From Pseudovirgaria hyperparasitica (taxonomy: Eukaryota), in assembly GCA_010093815.1 (NCBI GenBank), contig ML996585.1: a stretch of 64,000 nt of DNA, one strand, 5' to 3'. The notes under the pieces were generated by a model. The model worked only from the letters and a program-made list of their open reading frames with translations. It was not told the origin of the DNA and did not search any database. This document shows, one piece after another, positions 16,870-35,856 of this stretch; within the stretch, counting starts at the first letter, position 1, and every line of letters starts with the position of its first letter. Position numbers and translations under genes: made by a program.

Positions 16870-18150
16870 TTTATAGAGTATACCTAGCTATAGATAATAA
16901 TAACTCTATTCTTACCCTCCTCCTTACCTATTAGAACTACCTATTTAGATTATATATAGAGGCTATTATTAATACCGTCGACTAGTATAATTAAGGTAGT
17001 TTATAAGTATGTGATTCGAAGGCGTTAGTTCCGTGTATTCTAGCTAAGATCTAAGATATAGATAATAATACTCGAATAAGAGGCTAGATAGATATTTAAA
17101 TAGATACCTTTAATAAGTTATTAGCTACTTTAAAGATATATAGACTAAAAAATAGATAGAAAGTTACCGTGGACGAAAAACTCTTTATTTACCTTTATAT
17201 CTACTAAACTAGGCTTTCTCTTAATAAGGCGTAATAGATCTTAGAAAGAGATACTAGTACCCTAAGTATATAAGCTATTAGTATATTAGTTATTATCTTA
17301 CCGCTAATATAAGTAGTAATAGTATCTTTAATTAGGTGACTTACGTATTATATTAGCTTTATAAGGATATTATAAAGCTTCTAAGCGATAACGCTAAAGT
17401 CTATTCTATTATAGCTATAAATCCTAAGCTATTACCGTTTAAGGGCGCTATTAGAGTAATTAATAGTACTTATATATCTATATCTATACTAGAGGATAAG
17501 TAGTTAGCTTAGTAGAATTAAAAGTAGTTTATCTTATAGAACGTACTTACCGTAGTTAACTTTAACCTTAACTTTATATTTATATACCCTAGCTAGGAGG
17601 GTTTAGCGTACAATCTATACGTCTTTAATAAGGCGCTTAAAGATAGATTAACGTGTTCTAAAGGGAGATACTACCTTACTAATACTAGGTATACTAACTA
17701 ATAATATACTATACTCCTCACGCCGTATTATAAGACGAGATACCACCTCTATAAGGTAATAGCTACTAGATAGAAGCTAGAGACGAAGGAGAAACTCTTT
17801 AACCTTCGATACTTATAGCTTCGGAACTATATTAAGCGTGTTTTTAGAGTTCTAAAGGTATACTTTAAGATACTATTAAACCCACGACCTAATAGAAGTA
17901 TTATATAGTAGTTAAACCTTATATTTACCCTTACTACCCTCTATAACTTTATAAATATCTACCGAGATAATACTCTAGATCTTTATAAGGTAGTTATTAA
18001 GGAGGATTCTACTAATTTAAGGCCTCTAAATCTCTATAATACGTTAGAATAGAATAACGATAGAGATCGTATTATAGTAGCGTACTAGAAGTAATACTAG
18101 GCGTATATAGAGTTAGAATATAAGAATATTAAGGATAAAGTCGTATAGTA
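16870..18150 (+). pseudogene. RIP-degenerated PIF/Harbinger DDE transposase (DDE_Tnp_4-like)
   Basis: 17435-17476 reads PFKGAIRVINSTYI (de-RIP PFKGAIGAIDGTHI). ~17530-17620 reads QNVL..NFDL.F....GWEGSAHD. 17669-17692 reads YYLTNTRY (YYLADAGY), then LLTPY..TRYHL. ~17798-17870 reads FNLRH..LRN.IERVFGVLK..FKI. Ends approximate. Confidence 0.88.
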
Positions 18151-19016
18151 GAGTAGGCGTATACTATTATTTAATATTCGCCTATGTAATGGATATAACC
18201 AAGGTGTTACTATAATGGTAATTAAGATATATTATAATTTAACTTAGAGAGAATAGAGATAAGCCGTATGGTTATAGCTTTAAGTATAGTCTTAAGCGAG
18301 GTCACGTGATACCCCTATACTAGTCTCTATCCATCCCGGCTCTATTATATAATACTAGAGATAAGGTAAAGCCGAAGTCCATAACATACCCTTATTCTCT
18401 AGGATTGTTCTAGGGACCGGCTTAGTGTTTTATATAATAATAACCGGCTCGGTTAGGTCTTAGGTTTACGGTCTTTATATTATACTATATAATAACCGTA
18501 GAGCTATATATTCCTTCTAGTAAGGTAGTAGCTTTTTATAGTAGTATCCTAGCGGTTACGTGGTGGAGGTTAGTTCCTTATATTACGGCGTCGTAGGTTA
18601 TATAATTATAAGATAGTAGAATCCTATAGTTGCGTCGTGGCGGTTATATAGTAAAGGTAGACTCCTTATATTATGGTGTACCGCGTTAGGTTATATAAAG
18701 GTAGGGTAGCCTACGTACGAACCGCGCGTCCTATTTTATTATTATCCGTTTTAGGACCGGCTACTCTCTAGGCTAGGGGTTATATAGTAGTAGTAGAGTA
18801 GCTTGCGCATGACCCGCGTTTATTATTATTATCGTCTATTTTAGGACTAGCTCTACCCCGGTCTATATGATTTTCCCTAACACGAGTATATAGGTTCTAC
18901 GCCTAGCGACTTTCTTCTTTCTTAACTACCCTTACGCCTACTATCTTAATACCGCGTAGTAGCTACTATAATATTAGTAAACTCGTATACCACCTCGCAG
19001 CTTCTATACTATTATT

Positions 19017-20490
19017 ATAAGCGCTCTAGGCCTAAATAGTCCTATTATAGAAGCCAGCGCCGTCTCGGCGGTGGCTATAGATACTAGAGGTTAAGACCCT
19101 AACGATTATCGCGCGCCTAGGCGCTAGGAACCAGCTAATTATACCGTGAGTAGGTCCTGTCTCTACGCCGTTCCTTATACTAACTAGATAGACTATTCCT
19201 TCTACCGTACCCCGATAGGCTAAGCCTATTCGCCGTATAGAGCTATATATTATAGAGGGTAACTCGTTAGAAGACGAGCGTACTAAGTCCGTGTACTTTA
19301 TATATTATATATATATAAAGGCCCTAGAGAAAACTAGGGTACTTAGATATATACCGTCTCTATACCGTGGCGGCGCCTACTAATCTTAGAGCGTAGCTAT
19401 AAGTCTAGCCGCGGTACTAACTATATAAAGTACTACACGTTAAAGGGGACCTACTTATAGAATACTAAGAAGCTCGCTATATACCCGGCCTTACGTAAGG
19501 CGTAGAGTCGTCTTAAAAAGTTTATACACGAGTTAGTTAATAATAACTTTAGCTATATAACGGATCGTGGTAGTCGCGGCCTAGACCTAATAAAGCCTTC
19601 GTCCGGTAAGTAGCCGTGTATAAACTCTAAGTTCTACTATCTATACGAGGACTATAAGTCTAACTTAGAGATTATCTATATCACGCGATATAATACTAGT
19701 ATTATTAGTTAGACTCCCGTAACGCCTTATCGTGGCGCCGTAACGTCGTTTAAGCCGCCGTATCACGGTAGTAGTAACCATAGCTAGATTAGTAGCGTGA
19801 TTCACTAGATAAATTAGTACATGTCCTATAATAAGGCCTAGATAGATAAGCTATATACTAGTATCGGCACCTTATAGGTATATAAGCTTTATAAGTCTAA
19901 ATACCTATTCTAACGCGTGACGTAGGGTACTATATAGTAAGTCGTGTCTAGGTTGGCCCGTCTAGCGGAGCTACTATCTCGCTACCTTATTACTTAGGTA
20001 GTTATAGAGGATAAGAAGCCCTTATTAGGTAGTAGCCGCTTACGCTAACTCTAGCCCGTAGGCCATAGAGAGTCGCCGACTCGGAGCTCTCGCTATCGCC
20101 CTATTAGGCCCCCCCGGCTCCCTATCGCCGCCCCTCCTCGTGAGTCCTTACCGCCTTATTATTAGCCCCGGACCCCTCCTCGCTACCGTGACCGCTCCCG
20201 GTCCTACGAGCGTTATAGCCGGTCCCCCGTCTACTATAATCGGTTTCCCTACTATCGTAACCGGTTATATAACCGTTAGAACTAGTCGTACGACCGTCGC
20301 CGTCACTCGGGTAGCTATTAGTACCGTTCCCGTGAGGATTATTAAGTATCGCGCCGCTATCGGTTGCTGGCCTGTCCCCGCTATAACCCTCCCGTAGATA
20401 AGTACGACTCGCCCTTACTACCCGCCTAGATTAATAGCCGCCGCTATTATTAGAAGACGGCCTAGAGAAGGACTAGGTAACTAACCTTAT
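19017..20490 (+). pseudogene. Antisense multi-intron accessory gene remnant inside Gypsy element A (Cys-cluster-like motif plus RS/RD-rich tail)
   Basis: Plus-strand GT..CTAAC/CTAAT..TAG intron-like units at ~19146-19191, ~19339-19389, ~19606-19667, ~19878-19925 and ~19998-20054. Tyr (= RIPed Cys) pattern Y-x7-Y-x2-Y-x6-Y at 19398-19454. RTPPRYRDRSRSYER-type reading at ~20170-20230. Ends approximate. Confidence 0.6.
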
Positions 20491-20619
20491 ATTAGGATTT
20501 GCGGATAAGGACGGTACCGGCCCTAGCGCCGTGTAAACCTAGGGTAGGGCTAGGTAAATAACCTTTTTATGTCTTAAGGTAGGTGTCGGTTTATTATTAG
20601 GTTATACTAGGTACTAGCG

Positions 20620-23600
20620 TTCGGTATTTATTTCTTTCTTTTCTAAAATCTCTACTCTTATATTAGGTTATTAGGGCCGCCGTGGGCCTATAATAGTAGA
20701 GTAATATTACTACTTAGGGATGCGTTAGAGTCGTAGGCCGTTATATAATTAAGCGTCGCTATATCTAGACTCGAACCGGTCTAGCGCCTTAGTATCTTCT
20801 ACGTCCTTAAGTAGGACCTATATTAGTTATAACTAACCTTTCTACTTTATAAGTACCTATTACTTATTCCGCCCCCGTGTATTTTTCGCACGTAGAATGT
20901 CCTTAATCTTATACTCCGTGACTTCCTCGTCTACTTTATTAAGCTCGAGTACTAGGCCCGGGCGGGTATTAAGCCGCTCTTGGCTAGGTAGGGGATCCTC
21001 TATAGCGCGCTTAATAAGACTTATATAGACCGTTTTATAAAGGTCTCCGGGGAGGTTAAGGGTTACTATTAAGGGGGTAGGTTAGACTATAACCCGGTAT
21101 TTTATCTATAGCTAGTCGAGCTTCCGGCTCGGGCGGTTAGTCTTTATATTCTAGAGGGAGAACTATACTATATCGCCGACCTTAAAACGCTCGGCCGGGC
21201 GTCGTAACCGGTTTACCGAGTCTTAGAAGCGCTACTCGGCCTAGGTAATAGCCGCTTAAGCTAAGGTAGTGCCGTTCTAAAGGTGTTTAAGGAAATTTAT
21301 AGCCCGACCTTTTACTAAGGTCGTAGAGGCGTTAGAGAGTGGCTACCGTGGTAATAGTTTAATATAGTATCCGTTTAGAAGTAAGTTTAGCGCTATACCG
21401 GTTACTAACGAGGTGCGGTTATTAAGGGCGAGCTAATATACTAGGAGATATTCTAGCTAGTTAGTTTACTCGAAAGTTACTATAACGCGTAGTATAGTCT
21501 ATACCTCCTAGTTCGCACGCTTAGTACCACCGTCCGTCTACGGGTGGTAGGCCGTAGAGAGGTTCTAGTGTATACCTATTATGGAGTAGAGGGTTATCTA
21601 GAACTACCTAAGCTAGTCCGAGCCCTAGTCCGTGATTATTAACTAGGGGAACCCCTAGAAACGCTACCACGTATTACGGAACCGCGTAGTATAGTCCTTA
21701 GCTACTATAGAGGTTATCGCCTCTAGCTAAATAAACTTTAAGAGCCGGTCCGTAATAATAAGAAGATATTAGAGCTAGGATAGGTCCGATTAGGGGAGGT
21801 CGGTTATAAAATCCATAGAAATTTAGGACTAGAACCGGTCTAGTGTTAGAAGAGGCTAGAGGAGACTAGGGGCCTTATATTAGTTTACGTGGGCCCCGTA
21901 GTAGTTATAGTTTCGTACGAACTACCGGATATTAGTCTATATCCGCTTCTAGTAGTACTCCCGCTAAATAGCTATATAAGTCTTATTCTTACTAGGATAG
22001 CCCGCGAGGGGGGAGGTATAGGACTTCTAGATAATAGTCGTGGTAAGAGGTTTCTACTCGGGTACCTAAATGACCCCCCGCTATATTAGTATTCTATATA
22101 CTAATATGGCGTAGTCTATAACCTATTTAGTAGTAAGCGCCTCCGGTAGAAAGAGGTGTACCCTACCTACTACGGCCCTATAGTAGACCTAGTATACCGG
22201 GACTAACTAAATAGCCTAGTTCTAGAGCTCCTAGAGGTAGAGGTCGGTAAAGATACTTCGTCTCTAGGGGAGATAGGACTCCCCGGAGCGGGTGCTTACT
22301 AGTACTATTCTAATAGTCTATAGGGTTATAAGCCGTCCCCTTAGGAGGGACTTTTTAGATAAGTTCTAGTTACGGCGGCTTAGAGTATCTAGGCGGGCCG
22401 CCTAGGATCCCGGCCGGTATACGAGGTCGTAGTTAAATAGTATAAGCTAGTCGGACTATCGTTACTACCGTAGAATAAGAAGATAAGACTTAGTAAAGTG
22501 CTTAAGGTTTTTATAGTCTATATAGACTATAAAGGGGCGGTAGACGCTTTAGAGCTTAGGTTCCTACGTCTAGAGATACTAAACTACTATAAGGAGCTTC
22601 TTATCGTGGATTATATAGTTCCGCTAAGCGGCCGTAAGGGCCGCGGAATAGTAGGCTACCGGGTACTAAATACCCCGAACCTTTTAGGATAGGTATCTAC
22701 CCGTCACGTGTCCGGAGTAATCCGCCTTAACTATTATATCGCGTATCTTATTCTAGGACTAGAGGATTAGCCTAGTAATGAAAGCGTTCTTTAGCGTATT
22801 AAACGCGTGGTCCTTAGCTAGGCCCTAGTAGAAGGCCGTCCTAGCCTTAGTAAGGGCGTAGAGCGGGGCCGCTATAGTAGAGAAGTTAGGGAGGAAGTTA
22901 TAGTAGAAGTTTATAAACCTAATAAACCGCTAGATACCCCGGACCGTAGTCGGGGGCTTCTAGTCCCGGATAGCGGCGATCTTCTCCGGGTTAGGGCGGA
23001 TTAACTCTCTAGCGGTAATAATATAACCTAGGTACTAGACCTCCTTAGTAGCGAAACGGTATTTAGTAAGGTCGTAGTAAAGGTCCGCCTTTATAAGGAG
23101 AGATAGGATAGTTTTTATAGCGGCCTAGTAGTCTTCTAACGTGCCTAGGGTATATATAAGGATATTATCGAGATACGCTATATAGGTAACCCCGAGGACC
23201 CCGCTTAGTACTCTATTAATATAGCGCTAGAAGAAGGTAGAGGCGCCGGAGAGACCGAAAGGGAGAACTATCTATTTAAAGAGGCCGAATGTAAGGAGGC
23301 GGGCTCCACGTACCAACCAACTACACTAAAAGGACCGAATCTTGAAGCTACTACTTCAAGGGTGGAGCACACTACTTATATACGACTACTACACACATAT
23401 AGAATCAACTGGCAGGCCACGTGCTCCTTACGTGCCTAACATTATCTCCCCTTTTCGAAGGCGCGTGTCCTTACGTATCGTGGGCATATTACCTTACGAA
23501 AGATGAACTGAACTAGCCGCAACGGGCCTAGTATAAACCATGTGCACACACAACGAATATTCGTAATGCCGCCTCTAGTACTAGACATACTAACTTACCG

Positions 23601-26300
23601 TAGTGACGTTACTACCATGTCATCTATTACGTGCATAAAGTACATGTAACGTGGCAAGCTAAACGGAATCGTGCGAAATTCAATAACGGTTGACTAGACC
23701 GAGAGTTGAACCCGTGACCCCGTAGTAGCTTTAAGATTATATAAGGAGGCGGGCTCCACGCACTAACTAACTATACTAAAAGGACCGAATCTTAAAGCTA
23801 CTGCTTTAAGGGTGGAGTACACTACTTATATACGACTACTACACACATGTAGAATCAACTAGCAGGCCACGTGCTCCTTACGTGCCTGATACCGAACTAG
23901 GTACGGAAGGCCGTCTTATATTCGTCCCTAGTAGCGACCTATAGTTTATAAAATACCGCCCGGATGTCTACCTTACTAAACCATGACGTATTACTAATGG
24001 TATATAGAGTCTCGTATATAAGTGGTAGCGGGTATCGGTCCTATTTAGTAATACTATTAAGGGCCCTATAGTTAATATATAGCCGCTACTTCCCTCCCGG
24101 CTTAGGGATAAGAAGTACTAGCGCCCCGGCCGCTAAGGAGCTAGCCCGTATCTATCCCTTATCTATAAGATCCGTAAGCTAGCGATAGAGCTCTACGAGT
24201 TATTCCCGAGATATAGCGTAGAGCGGTCCCTAGGGGAGGTTTATAGGGGTTCCCGCCGGTATAGACTTAATATAGATATAGTAGTTAGTATTCCCTCTAT
24301 AGGGAGGTAGCACCGACGCCTTTTCCTTATTAAAGAGATTATGGTAGGCGTATAGCGTTAACGGGAGCGGGCGTCTATCCTCTATAAGCTCGGTCGTATT
24401 CTAGTTAGGTACCGGAGGTAACTAGGGGAGCATAAGTTATAGGAGGCGGGTGACGTCGCGGATACTAGTAGTAACTACTCGCCTACGGCGGTAAGCCGTC
24501 TCTAGACCCCTAGGAATATAGCCCTTCTTAGTAAGGACCCGGATACTTATTAGACGCCTATAGATATTAATATCCCGGGCTATAAGGCCGTGGGCGCGGT
24601 AAAGCGTGATTTCGTCTATATATATATTAATAACGGCGCCGGCCTAGTAGAGCTACGGGCTCCTAAGGATAAGGTCCCGGTCTAGCCCGGGCACTATATA
24701 GACGGTAAGGCGTTATCGCTACCCCGCGATATTATACTAGATAGTAACGACTTCCGTAATCTCTAGTCCTAATACTCCGTTAGTAGTAAGAGCTACTTGA
24801 CGATGTAGGACCGAGATATACGACTTAGCCACGTCTACTATAAGGGCCGGGCTAACCACCACGAAATACTCGCACCCTATATCTACTAAGGTATCTATAT
24901 ACTTCCTATTCTAGAGGAATAGCGATATAACGGGTGGGGATCCGTCTATAATCTAAGCGGGCGCGCTATCCTCTAGGTCGGAGCCGTTATCCGGGTTGCC
25001 TATAGCTTCGTTCCTTACCGAATATAGTAACGTCCTCTAACCTAGGCTTTAGTAGAGGGCTATACTTCCCCCGCCTTAGAGTTAGAATTAGTATTATTCT
25101 AAGCTAGGGCTATAACCTTAAGCGCTCGTATATTAATAGCGTTTAGATAGCCCCGGTATTAGTAGCTAGCCTAGCCGTACCGGGTATACACGCCCGCCGT
25201 GCGGCGCTTCTAGAATAAGTCCTTCGGGATCTATAAAGGAGTCTCTTTCTTCTTAACCCCGTCTCTACCCTTTACTATTAGGGACGCGGCTCGCTTCTTA
25301 CTCTTTATCTTAATAGTCTTAATAGTAACCGCCGATATTATCGTATCGCCGTCCTTATCCTTACTAGGCCTATTTTAAGGTACGGCGCTTTACCTAGTAT
25401 AGAGCTAGAATAACTCTATATCTATACTAATATTCTAAAGGCGGCCTACGGCGGCCTTATACTAGTCTAGGAGGCCCTGGTTTAGGGCTACCGCCTAGGT
25501 CTCCTAGTTAAGGCCGTCCCGGAGCCGTATAAGCTTCTAGTCATTAGCCTAGTATATTCCCCTAGCCTTCTAGAGGGCGGTATAGAACCGCACGAAGTAC
25601 TCTATAAACGGCTCCTTTACCTTTTATATAATTATATTTAACTACTAGAGGGCCCGCTCTTTAGCATGTATGTCTCCGAACTAGAATTTAAGGTAGTCTA
25701 AGAACGCGTATAGATCCTAGTCACCGTTTAGCCCCCTAGTGGAATATATAGTACTAACCCCCCTCTATACCTTAGGCGCTAGGTTAGTCTAAATAAGGGC
25801 TATTTAGTCTCTATAGGTACCGATAAAGTCGGCGTTCTAGGTAATCTTATACTATATCGTGACGGACTATATATAGAAGAGGGCCTTAGACCCGTTATAT
25901 AGGTCGCTAAGGGGGAGGGGCTTCCTCTTAGGAGCCTAGTCGAGTATAATATACGGCGTAGAAAGTAGTAAGGCGGGAGCGCGTGTAGGAAAGGCTAGTT
26001 TAGGCCCGTATAGGCGTTAGGGCGCTACCGGGGAGGAGTCGGGCTAGGGTAGGGACGAGTTACTATAAGTTAAGGTGGCGGGAGTACGGCTATATAACTT
26101 AACGGTAAGGAGGCGGGCGTTAATATATTATAGAGCCGTATAGACGCTATGTTCGATGTTAGATATCCGAGACTCGCTTACCGCTTAGACGGCCGTAATA
26201 GACTCGTGGATAGACCGTATCTCGTCCCGAAAGCTAAGGAAGGAGTTAGAGAGTTACTATATTAGATTAGAGTCTTACGGGTTAAGACTATCTTATACTA
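20620..26300 (-). pseudogene. gag-pol of Gypsy element A (CCHC, protease, RT, RNase H, integrase, chromodomain), interrupted by the TRIM
   Basis: De-RIP readings: CCHC knuckle ~25140-25200; RT FRTQFG|LFEW.VLPFGL split exactly by the TRIM, and YLDDILIY ~23150-23180; integrase STAYHPQTDGGTER ~21520-21560; chromodomain YLIKWKGW..PTWV..EDVED ~20790-20860. Confidence 0.88.
23290..23891 (-). mobile_element. TRIM (terminal-repeat retrotransposon in miniature), 602 bp, inserted in the RT of element A
   Basis: 152-bp direct LTRs at 23290-23441 and 23740-23891. TSD CCGAA at 23285-23289 and 23892-23896. Non-coding 298-bp interior. PPT (minus-strand AAAAGGGGAGATAA) abuts the left LTR. Confidence 0.92.
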
Positions 26301-26576
26301 TAAGGCCACGTATAGGAAGAGATAATTAAAGTTAAATTAATATAATAGATATAACCAAGGTGTTACTATAATAGTAATTAAGATATATTATAATTTAACT
26401 TAGAGAGAATAGGGATAAGCCGTATAGTTATAGCTTTAAGTATAGTCTTAAGCGATGTTACGTGATACCCCTATACTAGTCTCTATCCGTCCCGGCTCCG
26501 TTATGTAATACTAGAGACAAGGCAAAGCCGAAGTCCATAATAGCCTAGTATATATAGTATATAGAATCTAGGCGTA

Positions 26577-26716
26577 TGTTAGGCACGTGCCTACCAGTTG
26601 ATTATACATGTATGTAGTAGTCATATATAAGTAGTGTACTCCACCCTTAAAGTAGTAGCTTTAAGATTCGGTCCTTTTGGTATAGTTAGTTGGTACGTAG
26701 AGCCCGCCTCCTTATA
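26577..26716 (+). mobile_element. Solo LTR (140 bp) of the TRIM LTR family, opposite orientation to the TRIM
   Basis: Reverse complement of the TRIM LTR. TSD GCGTA at 26572-26576 and 26717-26721. Confidence 0.9.
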
Positions 26717-28276
26717 GCGTAGTATATACACGTATATTATGTGGAGTTATAACCATAATAAGTATAAATATTACTAAGCACGCAGCGACTTTCTTACACG
26801 GGTTCTCTTCGGGCTATACTACCTACTAAAAGTACGTCTTTTAGCGGGTATTTTATAGATATAATAGCCTGGTAAGAGCCTGGCGGAAAAGTCGCTACGT
26901 AATACTATACTACTATATCTAATAATATTTACTATAAACGCGAAGGCTATATACTAGATAGGTGAATATATATACGTTATAGTCTAAAATAGGCACTAGC
27001 TCGCTTAGATAGGTGTAGTAAATATACGTTATTAGTATATATATATATTTTTAAATCTATTAAAATATTCTTAATACTATACTCGTATTATTATAACTAA
27101 TAGTAGACTATAACTACTATAGACGCCCTACTATAGACTTAGATACTATACTTCCTTTATCTATAGTCTATATAGCCTTCTTCTTATCCGTAACCGTTAA
27201 ACGGCTAACCTCTACTATAGGAAATAGACCCGAGGCGCTACTATCTCTCTCTATAATCTACCCTTATAAAAACTTCTTCGCTCTCTTATTACTTATACTA
27301 AGGAAGAGATTAGCTATACCGGGGTTAGCGATAATAAGGTAGGCCTTATTAAAGTCCTTGTTAGTAAGTAGAGTTAAGTACTTTAGCTCTAACTTCTTTA
27401 TAGCTACTTATATTAGATCTTATTTCTTTAAGGTATATTTTTTAAACGTCTAAGTAAACTTACTCTAAGTCTAATATATAACCTTAGTAATATTACGGAT
27501 AGCCTTACTCCTTAGAGTAACTCTATTCTTAATTTTAAGGCGCTAAGCCGTAGCCTTACTATAAAGAGTAAAGACGTGGGATAGTAGTCTAATAGTTCAT
27601 AGAGAGACATAGAAATGTATTTATAGAGTAATCTTACTCTTATATAAGGTTAATTCCTAACGAGTAGAAATCGGTTTATGCGGTCTACTTATATAGTAAC
27701 CTCGCTTAACTTAGCTAACTTAACCTAGCTCTAGCCACTACGTGGCTACATGGATTAGAATAGTCTATATAGGTCCGTTATAGTTCCCGTCCTAATAATA
27801 TTCTTCTTCTTTTTATACTTCGCCCCGAAGTACTTAAGTATATATAATCCTAAGTCTCTATAATCCATCGTATATCTATATATCTATAACTAAGTTCCTA
27901 CAACGTTATAACTATCCTTAATATAGGTGAACTCGAGATTCTAGTTTACTTTTATTAGTTTATACACGCGCTTATCTCTTACTTCGTGGCTACTGCCTAG
28001 AACACGTAATTACTACTTTAGTTAAGTATATATTTAGCTTCGCTCGCCTTTGATTTTATTCTCTAGTATATCCACCTCGCTCTTAAGGTAAGTCGTTAAT
28101 TTATATACTATCTTCCCTAGTTTAGGTCTAGAAGGGTCTATAGTAGTCTATTCTTATTAGAACCGGTCCAATATAACCTATTCGCATTATTATAGTCACT
28201 AATTTAGCTTCGTTAATCGCCGTTAAGGGTAGACGAATATTCCTTCCTTAGATCTCTAGCTAATATATATATATAG

Positions 28277-29589
28277 ATATCTAATACTAGTCCTATCTCT
28301 AAGCCTACCTCCTCCTCTCGTAAGACTTACTCTAAAGGTATTGCCTCCTCCCCGGCCACGCCGGCTAAGAAGTCTACCTATCGCGGTAGTATAAAGGCGC
28401 GCTCTAAGTCGGAGAAGAGAGTAGCTAGGGCTACTACTACTACTACCTCTACTACTAATATGGCTACTAGTCGCTCTAATCTAGGTGATTCTAGTACTAA
28501 ACTTATGGATAAAGTGGTTATAGGTTCTCCTCTCGCTCTAAAGTACACGCCGTCTACTCTACCTCCTCTAGAGAATAAAGAAGATCTTATTATAGATAAT
28601 AATCGCGAGCCCTCGCGCTCACCTACGCCGCCGCCTCGCCGCTCTTCCTTCTAGTCTAATATAGACCGATTTAGTTGCTCTAGGTCCTTTTAGGACCTTA
28701 ATATTCGCTCTAAACCCTAGCCTACTAATAATAAGGCCTAGGTTACTAAGGATACTAAACGTGGTCGTAGTTTACGCCATAGGAAAACGGTAAACTACGG
28801 TTTAATATACTATAAGTATATTAAGGGCCATACGGCCAGCTCTAAATATCTCTTTCGCTCTAACTCTAGTATTAGCTACTACTCTACTAACCGCGACGGG
28901 CCTATACGCCCTATCTTTACTCTACCTATCTACTACCGCCGCTATACTATAACTAGTAAGACTTATCTATAGGTAAGTATAATGGGCTATCTTAATCTAG
29001 TATAATCTAAAGTAGTCCGCGCTAATACATTCTTAGGTTCCTATATATATATAAGATATATATAATAACCTTCGCGTCCGCGAGACCCTTAGGGGTCCTT
29101 ATAGCCGCCTATCTATTATATAGAGGGAGTTTAGAGAGCGCTATAAGCTCTTCCTAGAGGTTATTAAAGTATAAGTTACGAGCACGTTAATTATTTTTAA
29201 TACCTATTGATTTTTCTAGCCGCCGCGAGATCCCTAGCGCCTAGGCTACCTATTCTAGGGAGTCTATTCTAGCTATAGAGGCCGTAGAGAGGATTCGCTC
29301 TATCCCTCTCTATCCGTCTCGCGCTACTAACGGATCTTATAAGAGGTCTACTATTTCTCTCTCTAAGTCGCCTCGTAAGAGGGTATATATTCCCTTCTAG
29401 ATTATTCTAGATTATATTAGCTAACTTTAGACCTAGTCGCTACGCTCTAGTACTTAAGGCTCTTCCCTCTAGGCTCTAATAGATTAGATTATTACTCTAG
29501 AGGCTAAGGTCGTCGTCCTCCGCTACTATATCGTACGGTTAGAGAGAACTATACTAGAGATTAGGACGGATAATAAGATAGAGGAGTAG
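28277..29589 (+). pseudogene. Antisense intron-containing accessory gene remnant inside Gypsy element C (Cys6 cluster-like motif, C-terminal coiled coil)
   Basis: One frame from 28277 to 28972 whose only stops are TAG (RIPed CAG/TGG). It contains Y-x2-Y-x9-Y...Y-x2-Y-x6-Y (28808-28966). Introns GTAAGT..GCTAAT..TAG (28973-29036) and ~29169-29219. Then SPRKR and a heptad reading LMDRIVALEAEVVVLRR (de-RIP) at ~29475-29545. Confidence 0.7.
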
Positions 29590-30189
29590 CTCTATAGTTC
29601 TAGCTCTATGTGTTAGCTCTATGCCTAGCTCTATATATTCTAGATCTACTATAGGTAGTACGCGCCGGCTCTGTTTACCTAGCTTTTATCCGTTTTAGTT
29701 CTTTTTAGACCGTTTAGATACCTATCGGCCAGTTTCTAGTAATTTAATTCTTAACTTAATGATATTATGTGTGCGCTCGCTTAGCTTATAACTATCGGTT
29801 TCTATATTCTAATTTTCCTTAAGTTACCTAAGTGTGGGCACCGTATATAAATTAGTTTATCTCTATGAATTCTATTAGAGCACCCGAACTAGTAGCCTAG
29901 TAGTTATTGGTTTAGGTACTCTAACCTTTTATATTTCGTGTTAAGAGTTTAATTCTATGGTAGGGTACCTTTTTTTAGGTTCTTAGTCCTATATTTTTCT
30001 CGTGTATAATGGTCTATATTAGTCTATTCTAGACTCTTCTATATTATTCTATTATAGTATATCGCGTCGCGTTTCTAAAATGGTTGTTTACGCTTTCTTC
30101 GCGTCTAGTAACCGTATAACGCTTAAATTATAGGGCTACTATATAGAGTTTTCCTAGTGCGCGTCTGGATTTCCTGGTTTAGTACTTCG

Positions 30190-33100
30190 TTCTCTACGGT
30201 ATCCTTCTTCTTTTTACGACGACTACGACGTCGCTATACTTATATTAATAATATACTATTCTATATCTTTTGCTTATACGTAGTTATTATAGAACTTAAG
30301 ATGTATACCGCTAGTTCCTAGGTATTCTTATCCTTAGTATAGTCCTTCTAACGGATTCTATATTTCTAAACACCGTCTTTATTAATTCTATATTTAATAA
30401 TATAGTCTACTTCGAACACTTCTAGTCTATCTTAGGGTATAATAGAGTATAACTATACGTTAGTACGGCCATACACGTTAGGTCGAAATCTTTTAAGTAG
30501 TAAGACGTGGAACACGTTATAGATTCTTATATCGCTTTCTAAGTCGAGCTTATAGACTCTTATACTAATGCGACGTTTGATTCGGAAGGGACCAGCCATT
30601 TTATAATTAAGCTTCTTATTTACTCGCGACGTTCGTATATTACGGACGTTAAGAAGGACCTTATCGCCCTTCTTATACGTCTAATCCTTAGCTAACCTAT
30701 TATAGTACTTCGTATACGAGTCGTTTACTTATTAGATTATAGCGTGATAGTTATGTACGGTTTCGAAGATTTTAATCGCTAATTCCTAAGCGTGGACGTT
30801 CACGTCTATTATTCGATTAAATTAGACCGTCTAAGGCTTAAAACCTATCCTTAGACTACGTCCGAGGTTCGCCTAGAAAGGTATAATATCTATCATACTA
30901 TAACGACTATTATTATATACGAACTCTACTATACTTAGTAGGGAGGCCTAGTCGTCCTACTCGAAATTATAGAATATACGTAGGTAGGCCTTAAGCGTCT
31001 AATTCTATTACTCTATCTAGCCATCCGTCTAAGGATAAAATACTATAGATATGTTTCTATTTATGCTTACTATTTCGTAGAATAACGTCTAGAATTTAGA
31101 CGTGAAGGTACTTCCTCGGTCTATAACGATCCTTTTTAGTATACTATGGACCTTAATAATCTCGTTCTAGAACACCTACGCTAGTTCTTTAGATATAATC
31201 ATCTTCTATACTAGGATATACCTAGATATCTTTATAAGTCTATCCACGATAATAAGGATAGAATTATAACTTATTCTAAGTATCTCGCTTAGAGGTAAGT
31301 TAACTATAAAGTCTATAGTAACATCTTGCTATATAAAGAGGGGGGCTGAAAGAGGCTATAAATTCCTATATAGCTTATGCCTAGGGGCCTTCGTTCTTTA
31401 ATAAATCGGATAAGTAGCTATCTATTCTTTAACGTACTTAGGTATATCTTTCTAAAAATAGTACTAACGAATTAAGCTTAGGGTACGTATATACCTAAAG
31501 TATCCTACTAGATTAGCGTTATAGTATTAGCTAACTACGTTAAATCGCGCGTTACCCGTTAGTATATAGTACTTTCTATCGTAGTAAAGTAAGCCGTCCA
31601 CGAAGGTCTACTTATAGTCTACTTTAGTCTATAATAACCTATCTTACTATATTTTACGTAACTTTAAAACTATCGGGTCTATCTTCTATAGATCCACGAT
31701 TAACTAGGCGAGGTTAATTAGATATTCATGCTAGATATTATCGCCCTTCCCGATAGCGCTAATAAACGGCCTACTAGGGACTTCGGTACTATATCTTTAG
31801 TTACCGGCTTCGGTCTTAGAGATTTAATTACTAGCATCGATGTTAGTATCTTACTAATCGCCTAATAACTTAAAATCTAACCTTATTCTTAAGAGTTAGG
31901 CCTATAGCTACTCTAGGACCCTATGGCTACTATAATCCTAGGCGCCTTCTTCATAGTTAGGTCTTCTTAATATTCTATTAGCTAGGTTTATACTTCTAGG
32001 TTAATAGTAGATTATAAAGTGAAAGTTCATAAGCTACTTAGCCTATCGGACCTATTAACGGTTTAAAACCGTCGTGCTTATAAACCCCTTTAAGTTATAG
32101 TAATTAGTTAGTAACTTAACGTTATACATAGTACCTTTAAGATAATATCGCTACTATTTAAACGACTCTACTATTACTAGTAGCTCTTAGTTATAGATAG
32201 TATATCTAGTCTTAATATCGACTATTTTACGTAAGAAGAACACAACTAGATACCATTAGACCTTTTTAGACTTAGTTAGTCTAGGCTAGAAGAGAATATC
32301 TAAGATTATAAATCCTAACGCGTCGGTTTTAACGTGGATAGGTTTAGTCGGGTCGAAGTGCACTAGTAATAGGGTAGTTATAAATACCTCTTTAATTTTC
32401 TCGAAGGAGGCCCTTTCGCCTTCTAATAATTCTATAGGCTACGATTTAATATTACGCTATTTCTATCTACTACGGACTATAATAGACGAATCTATAGTAG
32501 TAGTACGCGCGTTAAGTAGTGCTACTAGCCGGGAGAAATGCTTAACGAATTTTTAGTAGTAATTAGCGAATCTAATAAAGACATATATATCTCGAACCGA
32601 TTTTAGTTTAGGCCAGTCCACGATAGTAGCGACCCTATCCCTTTCTATAGTTATACCTTAATTAGTAATAACGAAGCTAAGGAAGTTAACGTAGTCCTAG
32701 TGGAACTCGTATTTAGATAGCTTAATATATAGCTTATATTTTTCTAGCCTATCTAGGACTACGCGTACGTGCTAGATGTGTTCTTCTTCGTTATTAGAGA
32801 AGATAAGAATATTATTAAGGTATATAATGCACGTCGTATCGAGTAGGCCTACTAGCGCGTTATTAATATACGCTTAGAAGGTTCCTAGCGCGTTAGTTAG
32901 TCTAAAAGGGACTACTATGTACTCGAAGTATCTATAACGGGTCCTAAACGCTGTTTTCTACTTATCGCCCTTCTTAATACGTAGGCGGTAGTAGACGTCG
33001 CGTAGATTAAGCTTAGTAAAGATCTTCGCGCGCTCTAGTCTATTAATAGACTTAGAGATAAGAGGTAGTAGATAACGATTCTTTCGCGTGATATTATTTA

Positions 33101-35165
33101 GGCTATAGTAGTCGATATATAGATAGAGACTCCTATCCTTCTTCTTTATAAAGAGGATTAGAGCTCTAGCTAGAGATATACTAGGCCTAATCTATTCTCG
33201 TGTAAGGTTCTTTTCGATATATTCTCGGAGAACCTATAGCTCGGGTTCTAATAGAGGGTAGATAGGTCCGTATAGGGGTTATTAACTATCTTCAAGGTTA
33301 ATAGTAAGGTCGGTAGATTAGTATTAAGGTAATTCGGACGAGTCGATCGCTAACACGATATATTAGTATATTTTATACTAATATAGTAGGTTTTCGTCCA
33401 CTTTAATACTAAGCTCTCTATTTTAAGTAAGTAAGAGGACGTAGATAGCGGAGATTATCTTTTTATAGTCCTTCTAGAATTATTCGTCGTCGACTAGCTA
33501 TACTAGGTTCTATTATAGTAGGTACATGCGCTAGCCAGCTATTTTCTAGATAAAGTCTAGTTTTAGGTTATATTTTTCGAGCCACGGTATACCGAGAATT
33601 ATATTAAAGGGACTATCTACCACGATAAAGGTTAAGTAGTAGGGTTTCTACTTCCCCCCGCTGTCCTAGATACCATATTTAATAGTATAGATACTCTATG
33701 ATTTAATAGGACCGTCGATACTATAGAAGGTAGTATCTATTAGTACTTAAATATTAACGTTAAGTTCTCGTACTCGTTAAGTCGATATAACGTTAGTAGC
33801 TAAACCGCTATTAAGTATTATAGTCTAATGTTATCCATAAGGGACCTTAATAGGTCTAGCCTATAGTTTAATATACTAGTTAGCTAGTTATCCCTCTATT
33901 TTAGTTACGTCTATAAGTCGCGAGGGTTCCTTATAGATAGTTAGTTTTTTATATTATATACCGGGTAGTTAGACACGATGTATCCTAGCTACTAGTACTT
34001 ATAGTATATAACTAACTTAGTATCTATATTAGTATTCGGTGGTTTCCCTAAGCGGTACTTAGGTACTATATAGTCTATTCTACTATAGGTATAGTAGGTG
34101 ACTTTAGGTTATTTATATAAGTCGTTTCTCGCGTCTCGATATATTAACTAGTAGAAAGATCCGTGGTACGGGCCTCGTCTTCTCGAGTTCGTAGAGTGGT
34201 AGCACCCACGAGGTATTCCGCGCGATCTATTACTAAACCGGTCCTCTTTAGACGATTTTATATCGGATTAGATTAATAGAGATAGTCATGCGTCTATATA
34301 ACCTTAGTTATTTATTATACGCTAATATTATTCTACGAGATTCGCGAGTACCTAAAGGTTAGTAGAGATAGATATTATAAGGTCGATGCGTTCCTTTACG
34401 CTCGGGTTAAGGGACCTTTTAAAGTTATCGTATTATCGAACCATGCGATCTTCCTTAGCTTCTCTCTAAAGAGGTCGGAGGTATTTAAGGAGTTATAACG
34501 GGGATTATCTCTCTCGCTATTAAGTCTTAAAGATATAGCTCTAAGTCTATTCGTGTCGCTTAGCTCTATCGCCAAAGTATTAAAGAAGGAATTTAGTAAA
34601 CGTGTCCTAGTTATACGTATCCTTAGGGTGTTTAATTCGATATACTATCTAACGTTTAGATAGTATTAGGTCTAGGTAGTTCTATATAAATCTAATCTTA
34701 TTACTATCGTTCGTGAATAGATAGAAGAATCAGCTATACTAATAAGCCTATTTATAAAAGCTTCTCCTGGTTTTACCGTCGAAGTAAGGTAGTTTCTTAG
34801 GCTAAGGTAACTAGGATAGTAATAGACTTAGTTAGACTATTTCGGCTTAAGTTAATCTATATTAGTATAGATTAGTTACTACTAGTACTAAAGCGCGTAG
34901 TACGGCTTCGAGTCTAGCGGTTTATCCTCGCGCTTTATTAAGTTTATAAAGTTACTACTCGAGCTAAGCCTAACGCTACCTCTCCGCGTATAGCTTAGTA
35001 TATATATTATTATAAGGCGTGGTTAACGTTAGTCGGTTCTAACGACTTAATTCATTAATATTAATAGGGTCTAGTCTTATAGTAAGGATGGGTCTAGTAT
35101 AGTATAAACTAGACCGCGATAGAGTATAATGGACTCCTTCCTTATTATCTAGGTAATCTTCCATA
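30190..35165 (-). pseudogene. gag-pol of Gypsy element C
   Basis: De-RIP readings: CCHC ~34050-34105; RT YLDDILIFS.NEEEHI.HVR.VL.RL ~32750-32825 and FTKLDLRDVYYRLRIK.GD.WKTAFRTRY ~32935-33025; integrase IHNVFHVSLL ~30495-30525; chromodomain FEVD.I.KHR....YRIRWKDY..D..TWEP ~30310-30418. Confidence 0.88.
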
Positions 35166-35716
35166 GTTATACGGAATACTATACTAGTTATTAATATAAT
35201 AGCCTATAGGGTATACTTATTAGTAGAGGTGGTTATAGGGAGACTATTCTCTTCGTTTAGATTTAGAGAGAGTCTCTTATATAAGGTAGTGCTACGGGTA
35301 TTATAGCGCGTAGTAGAAGCTATCTCTATAAGCTGCTATCGTGCTATATAGAGAGAAATTAAAATATAAAGAGTAAAGACGTAGGATAGTAGTCTAATAG
35401 TTTATAGAGAGATATAGGAATATATTTATAGAGTAATCTTACTCTTATACGAGGTTGATTTCTAACGAGTAGGAATCGGTTTATATGGTCTACTTATATA
35501 GTAACCTTACTTAACTTAGCTAACTTAACCTAGCTCTAGCTACTACGTGGCTACATGGATTAGAATAGTCTATATAGGTCCGTTATAGTTCCCGTCCTAA
35601 TACTTACGATCCTTAATCCGGTCCTTATTCTTATCTCTATCTTTATTAGAGTTATTATAGTAAGTCTCCTTATTACTACCCTTATTATTAATATTAATTA
35701 GCGCCTTAATAGTATA

Positions 35717-35856
35717 TGTAAGGAGGCGGGCTCCACGCACCAACCAACTACACCAAAAGGACCGAATCTTGAAGCTACTACTTCAAGGGTGGAGCACACT
35801 ACTTATATACGACTACTGCACACATGTATAATCAACTAGCAGGCACGTGCCTGACA
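35717..35856 (-). mobile_element. Solo LTR (140 bp) of the TRIM LTR family, almost free of RIP
   Basis: TGTAAGGAGGCGGGCTCC...GTGCCTGACA with TSD GTATA at 35712-35716 and 35857-35861. Retains many CpA/TpG dinucleotides. Confidence 0.92.

What the first reader, a model, noticed from the sequence alone, without database searches (positions are those of the whole stretch)
18185..35602. Shared architecture suggests a general accessory-gene module in fungal chromoviruses
Seen: two independent elements in one locus, with different LTR sequence and length (202 vs 238 bp), share the layout 5'LTR - gag-pol(chromo) - antisense spliced gene with a C-x2-C-x6-C-ending cluster - PPT - 3'LTR. Inference: the gene could be driven by antisense promoter activity from the 3' LTR region, analogous to retroviral antisense regulators such as HTLV-1 HBZ. 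This may be a conserved but overlooked system, masked because RIP erases Cys codons and introns break naive ORF calls.
Basis: inference. Interest (0 to 1): 0.8.

Follow-up and report, generated by a model that had tools for sequence, protein, structure and literature searches.

The report
Antisense zinc-cluster gene in fungal retrotransposons
Two dead, mutation-riddled fungal retrotransposons each keep the wreck of an extra gene on the opposite strand, and intact relatives show that it is a real, selected, cysteine-cluster gene found in many fungal elements of this kind.

Summary
The window holds two complete Ty3/gypsy chromovirus insertions. Both have gag-pol on the minus strand, 5-bp target duplications and about 2.4 kb between pol and the 3' LTR. 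Both are heavily RIP-mutated. Their plus-strand "genes" cannot be shown from the window alone: there were no database hits, no similarity between E1 and E2, and the Tyr-for-Cys motif sits at background density.

Intact relatives from metagenomes settle most of it. Of 35 loci with enough sequence after pol, 18 carry an antisense gene with C-x2-C-x6-C clusters.
- **Type I (16 loci):** a Zn2Cys6-like six-Cys cluster plus coiled coil, often split by a conserved intron. dN/dS is 0.09-0.31 in four of five pairs. A 155-protein family includes Pleosporales genome proteins.
- **Type II (L001, L002; E2's nearest pol relatives):** a four-exon gene whose exon 1 ends "C-x2-C-x5/6-C-L-x" followed by a donor site.

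E2 shows this architecture with Tyr for Cys and an intact GTAAGT (alignment to L002 z=6.4). E1 shows it more weakly (4 of 500 shuffles).

The antisense-accessory-gene idea is already in print (brtn of Boty, 2011). The cluster type, its breadth and the selection on it turned up in no paper I found. Promoter and function are untested.

The parts
18180..18184 (.). E1 target-site duplication GCCTA (other copy 26543-26547)
   Evidence: read
18185..18386 (-). E1 3' LTR, 202 bp, TG...CA ends
   Evidence: the repeat finder. Ends read. 14 mismatches to the 5' LTR, 13 of them transitions.
18387..18400 (-). E1 polypurine tract (purine-rich on the minus strand)
   Evidence: sequence read
18387..20757 (.). 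E1 spacer between the end of pol and the 3' LTR (about 2.4 kb)
   Evidence: Pol end taken from the chromodomain-like stretch. No Pfam family in any frame.
19299..19460 (+). E1 remnant of the antisense gene's Cys cluster, read with Tyr for Cys. It runs Y-x2-Y (19299), 37 residues, then YIKYYTLKGTY-L-stop (19422-19460).
   Evidence: Local alignment to the L002 protein scores 46 against shuffles of 30.0 +/- 4.7, reached by 4 of 500. Third-ranked site of the island scan. The first Y-x2-Y lies in (TA)n-like sequence and is weak.
19606..19611 (+). GTAAGT, candidate donor ending the E1 exon
   Evidence: inferred only
20758..20919 (-). E1 chromodomain-like end of pol
   Evidence: blastp to the C-termini of P0014 and P0013. 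No Pfam hit.
20758..26340 (-). E1 gag-pol, RIP-broken. Pfam-matched stretches: RVT_1 at 23897-24109 and 23017-23295, RNase H at 22459-22815, Integrase_H2C2 at 21910-22050.
   Evidence: Pfam; coordinates computed from the matched residues
23289..23887 (+). Insertion in E1 RT holding two copies of a ~140-bp repeat; it splits the RVT_1 match
26341..26542 (-). E1 5' LTR
27555..27559 (.). E2 target-site duplication CTTAC (other copy 35603-35607)
27560..27797 (-). E2 3' LTR, 238 bp
   Evidence: 15 mismatches to the 5' LTR, all transitions.
27801..27814 (-). E2 polypurine tract
28460..28972 (+). E2 antisense gene remnant, exon 1: ATG at 28460, first knuckle YYKYIKGH at 28808-28831, cluster YRRYTITSKTY-L-stop at 28934-28972, four further in-frame stops
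   Evidence: The first-knuckle pattern taken from L001/L002 occurs once in the island, here (7 of 500 simulations give one or more). Alignment to L002 scores 62 against 32.1 +/- 4.7, reached by 0 of 500 shuffles. Top site of the island scan.
28973..29036 (+). E2 candidate intron, 64 nt: GTAAGT ... CTAAT ... TAG
   Evidence: The donor lies two codons after the last cluster residue, as in L001 and L002. After splicing it reads C-L-x-x-P in E2 and C-L-A-P-P in L002.
29037..29174 (+). E2 candidate exon 2 (extent uncertain)
   Evidence: Frame read; inferred. Later exons were not found.
30263..35364 (-). E2 gag-pol, RIP-broken. Pfam-matched stretches: RVT_1 at 32670-33149, RNase H at 32022-32417, Integrase_H2C2 at 31386-31547, SH3_Tf2-1 at 30486-30668, Chromo at 30270-30416.
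   Evidence: Pfam. A gag-like stretch was read by eye, with no Pfam hit.
35365..35602 (-). E2 5' LTR

Best explanation
E1 (18185-26542) and E2 (27560-35602) are two unrelated Ty3/gypsy chromovirus insertions on the minus strand. RIP has killed both.

Between pol and the 3' LTR each carries the wreck of an accessory gene on the opposite strand. The protein type is an N-terminal cysteine cluster (C-x2-C ... C-x2-C-x5/6-C) that ends exon 1, followed by a basic stretch and a C-terminal coiled coil. Its intact form is the four-exon gene of the metagenome elements L001 and L002 (266 and 286 aa).

This gene belongs to a wider set of antisense cysteine-cluster genes in fungal chromoviruses. The commoner form (type I) has a Zn2Cys6-like six-Cys cluster, a coiled coil and an acidic tail, which is the layout of a small Gal4-type DNA-binding dimer.

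Shown:
- the anatomy of the elements;
- the existence, splicing signals and purifying selection of the gene in intact relatives;
- the architectural match of E2, and more weakly E1, to L002.

Inferred:
- the gene is transcribed from the 3' LTR side, running towards pol;
- its product binds zinc and nucleic acid and regulates the element's own (or host) transcription.

In this window the gene is dead.
For: **Anatomy of the elements.** LTR pairs, TSDs and RIP indices come. Pol domains are only in minus frames.

**Survey of 80 metagenome chromovirus loci.**
- C-x2-C-x6-C occurs 37 times in antisense frames within 3 kb after pol (94.8 kb). It occurs 3 times in sense frames there, and 21 times in 254 kb antisense to pol.
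- Among ORFs of 90 aa or more after pol there are 32 motif matches on the antisense strand and 1 on the sense strand, in about 31,000 residues each.
- 19 of the 35 loci with at least 1000 bp after pol have the motif. I set aside 2 (L030, L050) as isolated and added L001, whose spacing is x5. That gives 18 of 35.

**Gene signals in the intact relatives.**
- A GTAAGT/GTGAGT...YAG intron of 46-57 nt lies at the same place between the two half clusters in 6 of 8 loci examined. Splicing gives C-x2-C-x6-C-x10-C-x2-C-x6-C in the four group-A loci.
- dN/dS in the gene frame is 0.31, 0.15, 0.22 and 0.09, against about 1 in most other frames (4 of 5 pairs); the frame on the opposite strand that shares its third positions is also low, as expected. 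The fifth pair is inconclusive at 0.54.
- 155 database proteins match at E<=1e-3. The named ones are all Pleosporales, and UniRef calls several 'Zn(2)-C6 fungal-type domain-containing protein'.
- Five Cys columns are invariant and the sixth is conserved in at least 90% of 40 aligned members.
- Pfam Zn_clus matches 29 of 40 members at E<=1, best 5.7e-5.
- 15 of 18 Foldseek PDB rows are Zn2Cys6 DNA-binding domains.
- LTR-bounded loci with the gene have spacers of 1402-1898 bp (4 loci). Those without have 96-930 bp (5 loci).

**Link to the window.**
- In the pol tree E2 groups with L001+L002 (SH-aLRT 93, inside a clade with support 99).
- L001 and L002 carry four-exon antisense genes with GT..AG introns of 44-79 nt.
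- The E2 and E1 matches to L002 are given under parts.
- The cluster lies 1035 bp (E1) and 1136 bp (E2) from the 3' LTR edge, and about 1300 bp from the pol end in both.
Against: - The window's plus-strand frames gave nothing in databases. 445 candidates were scored with none at E<=0.01. phmmer found 0 hits among 1.84 billion representatives for one E1 frame.
- Six-frame comparison of the two spacers gave nothing better than E 0.014, and that hit was in opposite-strand frames.
- Profiles and 120 proteins of the type I family find nothing in the RIP island, even with Tyr scored as Cys.
- The [CY] motif is at background density.
- The L001/L002-derived long pattern occurs twice in the island, but 95 of 500 simulations reach that count. 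Only its placement is special.
- E2 and E1 do not align significantly to L001 (56 and 151 of 500 shuffles).
- L001 and L002 themselves share no significant sequence similarity (blastp E 0.48). 'Homology' therefore rests on architecture and a few residues.
- Scoring Tyr as Cys inflates scores. Shuffling controls for composition only.
- A second, conflicting E1-E2 alignment exists (13 of 500).
- In the island scan a minus-strand site near the E1 pol end outscored the E1 site (47 against 46).
- E1's place in the tree is unsure (long branch at the root).
- Type I and type II, and the ascomycete and basidiomycete type I groups, are not shown to be one family. hhalign gives probability 6%. The type I profile against L002 gives E 4e-4, but in a search of only two sequences.
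- No transcript, zinc or DNA-binding data exist.
Confidence: 0.62

Rival explanations
1. The plus-strand 'gene' in E1 and E2 is a chance pattern. RIP makes the sequence rich in TAT/TAC, so Tyr motifs, stop-poor stretches and even a GTAAGT arise by accident. The long spacers are then just degraded non-coding or captured DNA.
For: - Motif density is at background.
- 95 of 500 simulations give two or more matches to the relative-derived long pattern.
- GTAAGT occurs 12 times on the plus strand of the island, so a donor near one of 21 motifs is not rare.
- There were no database or profile hits.
- Several of my patterns were shaped after seeing the data.
Against: - The only two matches in six frames of 20.5 kb fall on the plus strand of the two spacers, at matching distances from LTR and pol.
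- The first-knuckle pattern taken from L001/L002 hits once, exactly at the start of the E2 match (7 of 500 simulations).
- E2 against L002 gives z 6.4, reached by 0 of 500 shuffles, and is the top site of 1020 windows.
- The donor sits two codons after the last cluster residue, as in L001 and L002.
- E2's nearest pol relatives carry the gene.
Confidence: 0.15
2. The antisense genes are pieces of host zinc-cluster transcription-factor genes picked up repeatedly and independently by different elements. They are passengers without a role in the element's life cycle.
For: - The ascomycete and basidiomycete groups, and types I and II, share little beyond the Cys pattern.
- In the quick tree the label 'two clusters' needs at least 7 changes.
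- Zn2Cys6 genes are very numerous in fungi (general knowledge).
Against: - Purifying selection acts between diverged element copies.
- Position and orientation are the same in every case.
- The intron between the half clusters lies at the same place in three subgroups whose proteins no longer match by blastp.
- All loci with enough flank in two well-supported pol clades carry it, except L029.
Confidence: 0.15
3. The spacers hold a nested fragment of another mobile element in the opposite orientation, and the Cys motif is its gag zinc knuckle.
For: Near E2 28808 the string YYKYIKGHTASSKY loosely recalls a C-x2-C-x4-H-x4-C knuckle.
Against: - The spacing does not fit: x3-H-x5.
- There is no Pfam gag, RT or knuckle hit on the plus frames.
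- No extra repeats or duplications bound the spacer.
- Intact relatives show a dedicated spliced gene there.
Confidence: 0.03

Closest known systems
[quoted passage not shown] 2011, Virology 417:248)
   Same: A fungal chromodomain-bearing Ty3/gypsy element with an additional gene on the opposite strand between pol and the 3' LTR. This is stated in passages of PMC7264820, PMC8365987 and PMC4227169.
   Different: I could not read the 2011 paper or obtain a BRTN sequence. Whether brtn has a Cys cluster, has introns, or is related to type I or type II is unknown. None of the named hits of the type I family is from Botrytis or Sclerotinia, but that search sees only word-sharing relatives.
Antisense additional ORFs of plant LTR retrotransposons (aORF-3R of RIRE2, Grande, Retand, PvRetro13)
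   Same: Same place and orientation, conserved among copies, function unknown (PMC7264820 section 5).
   Different: The plant elements named are mostly non-chromovirus lineages such as Retand (abstract listing of PMC11963269). No sequence relation was tested. I saw no report of a zinc-cluster motif in the passages read.
Gal4-type Zn(II)2Cys6 binuclear-cluster DNA-binding domains (Pfam PF00172; Gal4, Ppr1, Put3, Leu3, Hap1, Pho7)
   Same: - Type I proteins have six Cys spaced C-x2-C-x6-C-x8-11-C-x2-C-x6-C.
- A long helix follows (AF2 helix 62-117), with an acidic C-terminus.
- Weak Pfam, PDB-sequence and fold matches point to this family and to no other zinc domain.
   Different: - The scores are weak. 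ORFs from the loci score 13-17 bits against a cut-off of 21. PDB hmmsearch gives E 0.27 for GAL4. Foldseek gives E 0.8-7.
- The proteins are only 160-330 aa and lack the fungal 'middle homology' region.
- They are encoded inside a retrotransposon.
- The window's type II spacing (x16 and x23 in L001) does not fit the family.
HTLV-1 HBZ (and HIV-1 ASP): retroviral proteins encoded on the antisense strand and transcribed from the 3' LTR
   Same: Antisense gene at the 3' end of a reverse-transcribing element, spliced, with a dimerising coiled coil and a nucleic-acid-binding type of domain. The start codon lies close to the 3' LTR (118-183 bp in L026, L038 and L071). The HBZ features are recalled from general knowledge, not from a call.
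   Different: HBZ is a bZIP protein, and no zinc cluster is involved. Here the transcription start, the promoter and any regulatory action are untested. This is an analogy of layout only.

Membership tests
Ty3/gypsy chromovirus (Metaviridae) | LTR pair with TG..CA ends and a short target-site duplication | tested here: met
   E1 has 202-bp LTRs with TG..CA ends and TSD GCCTA. E2 has 238-bp LTRs with ends read TA..TA (consistent with RIP of TG..CA) and TSD CTTAC.
Ty3/gypsy chromovirus (Metaviridae) | pol order RT - RNase H - integrase | tested here: met
   Pfam RVT_1, RT_RNaseH_2/RT_RNaseH and Integrase_H2C2 occur in that order on the minus strand in both elements. Protease and gag are not detected by Pfam.
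Ty3/gypsy chromovirus (Metaviridae) | chromodomain at the integrase C-terminus | tested here: inconclusive
   E2: Chromo E 5.8e-4, 20.2 bits, below the 25.1 cut-off. E1: no Pfam hit, but it aligns to the chromodomain start of P0014 and P0013. The best database relatives of E2 pol carry PF00385.
Antisense additional ORF between pol and 3' LTR (aORF-3R; brtn of Boty) | coding sequence on the opposite strand between pol and the 3' LTR, kept among copies | tested here: met
   Met in intact relatives: 18 of 35 loci, with introns and dN/dS below 1. In the window only RIP-broken remnants remain.
Antisense additional ORF between pol and 3' LTR (aORF-3R; brtn of Boty) | sequence relation to BRTN itself | not testable with these tools
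   The paper is not held and no BRTN sequence reached me.
Zn(II)2Cys6 binuclear cluster (PF00172) | six Cys spaced C-x2-C-x6-C-x5-12-C-x2-C-x6-8-C | tested here: met
   Met by type I only. NOT met by type II, the form in the window: L001 reads C-x2-C-x16-C-x23-C-x2-C-x5-C.
Zn(II)2Cys6 binuclear cluster (PF00172) | match to the family profile above its curated cut-off | tested here: inconclusive
   5 of 23 locus ORFs match at 13-17 bits, below 21. 29 of 40 family members match at E<=1, best E 5.7e-5.
Zn(II)2Cys6 binuclear cluster (PF00172) | fold of the DNA-binding domain | tested here: inconclusive
   The AF2 model has mean pLDDT 70.6, with two short helices at the C-x2-C turns and a long helix. 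15 of 18 Foldseek rows are Zn2Cys6 domains, with Pho7 at rmsd 2.6-2.7 A over 39 columns, but all have E>=0.77.
HBZ-like antisense retroviral regulator | transcription starting in the 3' LTR on the antisense strand | not testable with these tools
   No RNA holder was listed for the window stretch. Only the distance from ATG to LTR is known in relatives.
HBZ-like antisense retroviral regulator | bZIP domain | tested here: not met
   No bZIP family appears among the Pfam matches. The DNA-binding-type domain is a Cys cluster.

The most novel reading that the evidence does not exclude
Chromoviruses of both Ascomycota and Basidiomycota carry one ancient, fast-evolving antisense gene family. It encodes a small Gal4-like zinc-cluster dimer and is transcribed from the 3' LTR side. 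The protein binds the element's own LTR, or host promoters, and sets when the element is expressed. That would make it a retrotransposon-encoded transcription factor and a fungal counterpart of HBZ. Types I and II and Boty's brtn would all be its descendants.
Probability: 0.2. Interest if true: 0.85.

Novelty: new variant of a known kind. Interest (0 to 1): 0.62.

Why it matters
Antisense extra genes in LTR retrotransposons have been known for decades in plants and since 2011 in Botrytis, but the review passage I read says their function is not known (PMC7264820).

A form with a recognisable DNA-binding-type cluster, a dimerising helix and an acidic tail gives a concrete hypothesis that can be tested directly: an element-encoded transcription regulator.

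It is under selection and present in many fungal elements, including elements of sequenced Pleosporales. In those genomes the copies are annotated as ordinary 'hypothetical' or 'Zn(2)-C6 domain' host proteins. That inflates counts of fungal transcription factors and hides their transposon origin.

For this window itself, the two copies are dead relics in a RIP-mutated repeat island.

Tried and rejected
- **Own genome.** None is held, so other copies of E1/E2 could not be compared.
- **Earlier notes of this scan.** Nothing found.
- **RIP-broken plus frames against databases.** 0 hits.
- **Spacer against spacer in six frames.** Nothing.
- **Antisense ORFs of the loci against E1/E2 by tblastn.** Only pol matches.
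- **Type I profiles and 120 family proteins against the island.** Tried with and without Tyr scored as Cys; nothing.
- **Counting [CY]-x2-[CY]-x6-[CY].** Background level.
- **GTAAGT proximity.** Too weak to stand alone.
- **Patterns fitted after seeing E1/E2.** Circular. I replaced them with patterns taken from L001/L002.
- **Candidate E1 sites at 20205 and 20373, and E2 site at 29763.** I dropped them: they lie in low-complexity or non-coding-looking sequence and have no counterpart in relatives.
- **Greedy longest-ORF splice finder.** It gave wrong models and was replaced by exon ends read from the sequence.
- **E1/E2 against L001.** Not significant.
- **hhalign of ascomycete against basidiomycete type I groups.** Probability 6%.
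- **Sequencing runs.** No RNA holder listed.
- **Atlas look-ups.** They gave only phylum leads: Ascomycota for P0119, Basidiomycota for the L038 ORF, at scores 0.90-0.94.
- **Terminal repeats in the loci.** Many of the 25 'LTR pairs' are contig-end overlaps of circularly assembled elements. I trusted only internal pairs.
- **Literature.** Searches for a zinc-cluster antisense gene in fungal retrotransposons found none in the held library. The Zhao 2011 paper is not held. The supplements of PMC8365987 that draw the extra ORFs are PDFs I could not see, and they may bear on novelty.

Full report
**1. What is in the window.**

Bases 16.5-37 kb form a repeat island with the signature of repeat-induced point mutation (RIP). 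TA/AT is 1.3-2.6 and (CA+TG)/(AC+GT) is 0.09-0.7 (below 0.5 throughout 17-37 kb), against 0.7-0.8 and 1.0-1.2 in the flanks.

Two pairs of direct repeats bound two elements.
- E1 has 202-bp LTRs at 18185-18386 and 26341-26542, with TG..CA ends, flanked by GCCTA on both sides.
- E2 has 238-bp LTRs at 27560-27797 and 35365-35602, flanked by CTTAC.
- The LTR copies differ at 14 and 15 positions. 13 and 15 of these are transitions.
- E1 and E2 share no DNA similarity.

Six-frame Pfam scans with stops read as X place every pol domain on the minus strand and nothing on the plus strand.
- E1: RVT_1 in two pieces, RT_RNaseH_2, RT_RNaseH, Integrase_H2C2.
- E2: RVT_1, RT_RNaseH_2, RT_RNaseH, Integrase_H2C2, SH3_Tf2-1 and a weak Chromo.

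So the left LTRs are the 3' LTRs. The purine-rich tracts sit beside them as expected.

The chromodomain is sub-threshold in E2 (E 5.8e-4). In E1 it is visible only by alignment to relatives.

About 2.4 kb lies between the end of pol and the 3' LTR in each element.

**2. The window alone does not prove a plus-strand gene.**
- The only open frames of 100 aa or more in 17-37 kb are three short ones.
- The two spacers show no similarity in any frame pair.
- The best-looking plus frames found nothing in 5.8 billion proteins (445 candidates, none at E<=0.01).
- One E1 frame found nothing in an exhaustive phmmer over 1.84 billion representatives.
- No Cys is left in the motifs. The Tyr-for-Cys version of C-x2-C-x6-C occurs at background density across the island.

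**3. Relatives.**

E2 pol, read through, finds fungal chromovirus polyproteins (99 at E<=1e-5, best 38% identity). An alignment of 16 of them (A1) pulled 80 loci from metagenome contigs. These were the best 80 of 590 confirmed stretches.

In these mostly intact elements, the strand opposite to pol just after pol's end is full of C-x2-C-x6-C.
- There are 37 matches in 94.8 kb, against 3 on the sense strand there.
- Antisense to pol there are 21 matches in 254 kb.
- In ORFs of 90 aa or more there are 32 matches on the antisense strand against 1 on the sense strand.

Of the 35 loci with at least 1000 bp after pol, 19 have the motif.
- I set aside L030 and L050, which have isolated single motifs and no ORF context. 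I did not test that judgement further.
- I added L001, whose last spacing is x5.
- That gives 18 of 35.
- The other 45 loci were too short after pol to judge.

**4. Type I (16 of the 35, plus L054, which has a shorter flank).**
- Two half clusters lie 57-120 nt apart.
- In L026, L032, L036, L075, L067 and L014 a GTAAGT/GTGAGT...YAG intron of 46-57 nt lies between them. Splicing gives C-x2-C-x6-C-x10-C-x2-C-x6-C in the four group-A loci, and six in-frame Cys in all six.
- In L068 and L079 no canonical intron was found. The donor G reads A there.
- In L038/L071 and in L021/L034/L080/L054 the cluster is uninterrupted.
- Around the cluster lie a charged N-terminal part, a basic stretch, a heptad-like helix and an acidic tail.
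- In the three LTR-bounded loci where exon 1 is clear, the start codon lies 118-183 bp inside the 3' LTR edge (L026, L038, L071).
- LTR-bounded loci with the gene have spacers of 1402-1898 bp. Those without have 96-930 bp.

Selection on the gene frame, by pair:

| Pair | dN/dS in the gene frame |
|---|---|
| L038/L071 exon 2 | 0.31 |
| L047/L058 | 0.15 |
| L036/L068 | 0.22 |
| L026/L079 | 0.09 |
| L038/L071 exon 1 | 0.54 (inconclusive) |

In the first four pairs most other frames give about 1. The mirror frame that shares third positions is also low, as expected.

A profile of the four single-exon ORFs (A2) found 155 proteins at E<=1e-3. Many lie on 6-8 kb contigs. The named ones all come from Pleosporales: Bipolaris, Pyrenophora, Exserohilum, Sporormia, Periconia and Macroventuria.

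Evidence that this is a Zn2Cys6-like domain:
- Five Cys columns are invariant and the sixth is kept in at least 90% of 40 aligned members.
- Pfam Zn_clus matches 29 of 40 members at E<=1, best 5.7e-5.
- The locus ORFs stay below the cut-off.
- A PDB sequence search gives GAL4, LAC9 and LEU3 only at E 0.27-6.
- The AF2 model (pLDDT 70.6) has two short helices at the C-x2-C turns and a 56-residue helix.
- 15 of 18 Foldseek rows are Zn2Cys6 DNA-binding domains, all at E>=0.77.

I read this as a divergent Zn2Cys6-like domain followed by a dimerising helix. I do not read it as proven membership.

Atlas look-ups suggest Ascomycota for the Pleosporales group and Basidiomycota for the L038 group. These are leads only. 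The two groups are not demonstrably one family (hhalign probability 6%).

**5. Type II and the link to the window.**

The pol tree is a quick IQ-TREE run with SH-aLRT support only. It has 62 loci plus E1 and E2. 18 loci were dropped because their pol segment covered fewer than 450 of 670 query residues in one frame, and E1 was added by hand.
- E2 groups with L001+L002 (support 93) inside a nine-row clade (support 99).
- E1 sits on a very long branch at the root and cannot be placed.

L001 and L002 carry four-exon antisense genes.

| Locus | Protein | Introns | Exon 1 |
|---|---|---|---|
| L001 | 266 aa | 44, 47, 51 nt | C-x2-C-x16-C-x23-C-x2-C-x5-C-L-E, then GTAGGT |
| L002 | 286 aa | 79, 72, 58 nt | C-x2-C ... 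C-x2-C-x6-C-L-A, then GTAAGT |

All introns are GT..AG. Both proteins end in a coiled coil. Both first knuckles read C-x-[KR]-C-x-[KQ]-G-aromatic.

E2's plus strand has the same layout, with Tyr at every Cys position.
- ATG at 28460.
- YYKYIKGH at 28808.
- 38 residues further on, YRRYTITSKTY-L-stop at 28934-28972.
- GTAAGT at 28973, then CTAAT, and the acceptor at 29034-36.

Tests for E2:
- The first-knuckle pattern taken from L001/L002 hits once in six frames of the island, at exactly this place. 7 of 500 second-order Markov simulations give any hit.
- With Tyr scored as Cys, E2 exon 1 plus exon 2 aligns to L002 at 62 against 32.1 +/- 4.7, reached by 0 of 500 shuffles. The alignment shares FRSN and, across the predicted splice, C-L-x-x-P against C-L-A-P-P.
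- In a scan of 1020 windows over all six frames, this site is the best.

E1 has Y-x2-Y at 19299, which lies in (TA)n-like sequence. 37 residues later comes YIKYYTLKGTY-L-stop at 19422-19460. The frame then continues without an adjacent donor up to a GTAAGT at 19606.
- It aligns to L002 through the cluster and 37 residues beyond, including KLAI against ELAI and NN..S..TD.
- The score is 46, reached by 4 of 500 shuffles.
- It is the third-ranked site of the scan, behind a minus-strand site near the end of E1's pol.

In both elements the cluster lies about 1.0-1.1 kb from the 3' LTR and about 1.3 kb from the end of pol.

Against this reading:
- Neither element aligns significantly to L001, and L001 and L002 do not align to each other.
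- The long pattern's count alone is unremarkable (95 of 500 simulations).
- A rival E1-E2 alignment exists.

I put E2 at about 0.8 and E1 at about 0.6 for being wrecks of this gene.

A type I profile touches L002's cluster and the acidic stretch after it (E 4e-4 in a two-sequence search). This hints, without showing, that the two types are related.

**6. How it probably works.**

Shown:
- the gene's place and orientation;
- its splice signals;
- selection on it;
- the domain layout.

Inferred:
- transcription from or near the 3' LTR towards pol;
- zinc binding;
- dimerisation;
- nucleic-acid binding;
- a role in controlling the element's own or host transcription.

I give the regulator model about 0.35. 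No RNA runs were listed for the window stretch, and the copies here are dead anyway.

**7. What is known.**
- An antisense gene between pol and the 3' LTR is established for plant elements and for Boty of Botrytis and Sclerotinia (passages of PMC7264820).
- BcGypsy1 is drawn with brtn, and other B. cinerea Gypsy elements with further extra ORFs (methods passage of PMC8365987).
- A Boty-like element carries 'brtn-106' (PMC4227169).
- A Monilinia transcript is similar to BRTN (PMC5987419).

I could not read the original paper. Five full-text searches found no paper describing a zinc-cluster antisense gene in fungal retrotransposons. That covers only the held library.

**Verdict.** This is a new variant of a known kind. 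The claim of being 'overlooked' holds only in part.

Noticed in passing
window 23289-23437, 23739-23887, 26577-26716 (minus), 35703-35864: A repeat of about 140 bp occurs in four copies, 87-95% alike and much less RIP-mutated than its surroundings. Two copies, 450 bp apart, sit inside E1's reverse transcriptase and split the RVT_1 match. The other two lie just outside the 5' LTRs of E1 and E2. It may be a short non-autonomous element too small for RIP. Its translation weakly resembles the N-terminus of some type I proteins (E 0.6-1.6, not significant).
   Followed up: partly
window 49262-49728: A tandem array of 31 copies of a 15-bp unit (TCAGGCTTTGGTTCT, 81% matches). It coincides with an AT skew of -0.52, and could be an in-frame five-residue repeat in a gene.
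   Followed up: no
window 20060-20430: A G+C-richer, low-complexity block in E1's spacer is open on both strands (111 aa plus, 102 aa minus). It reads as an Arg/Ser/Tyr-rich or a Gly/Ser/Asp-rich tail. It may be a C-terminal extension of pol or part of the antisense gene.
   Followed up: partly
window 14001-16000: A sharp GC-skew switch (-0.28 to +0.31) at G+C 0.56-0.60, right at the left edge of the RIP island.
   Followed up: no
window 16500-18184, 26543-27554, 35608-37000: The RIP-mutated island extends beyond the two elements and holds further degraded repeats, for example 16812-16877 resembling 36445-36509. The two elements are inserted into older repeat debris.
   Followed up: no
L028 10430-11035, L040 3337-3940, L041 14076-14399 (minus strand of the loci): Another chromovirus clade shares an antisense open frame between pol and the 3' LTR that has no Cys motif. 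The sequence is G+C-rich and open in several frames, so it may not be a gene.
   Followed up: no
L029 (pol 3830-7147): Its pol is almost identical to those of L038 and L071, yet no antisense Cys motif is seen within 3 kb after pol. This could be a deletion derivative or a rearranged contig.
   Followed up: no
L001 introns (about 6550-6507, 6342-6296, 6153-6103, minus strand): The three introns of the L001 antisense gene resemble one another, each holding a TGGCG[CT]AAA motif followed by a CTGAC/CTAAT-type branch signal (TGGCGCAAACTGAC in intron 1). That is unusual for unrelated introns.
   Followed up: no
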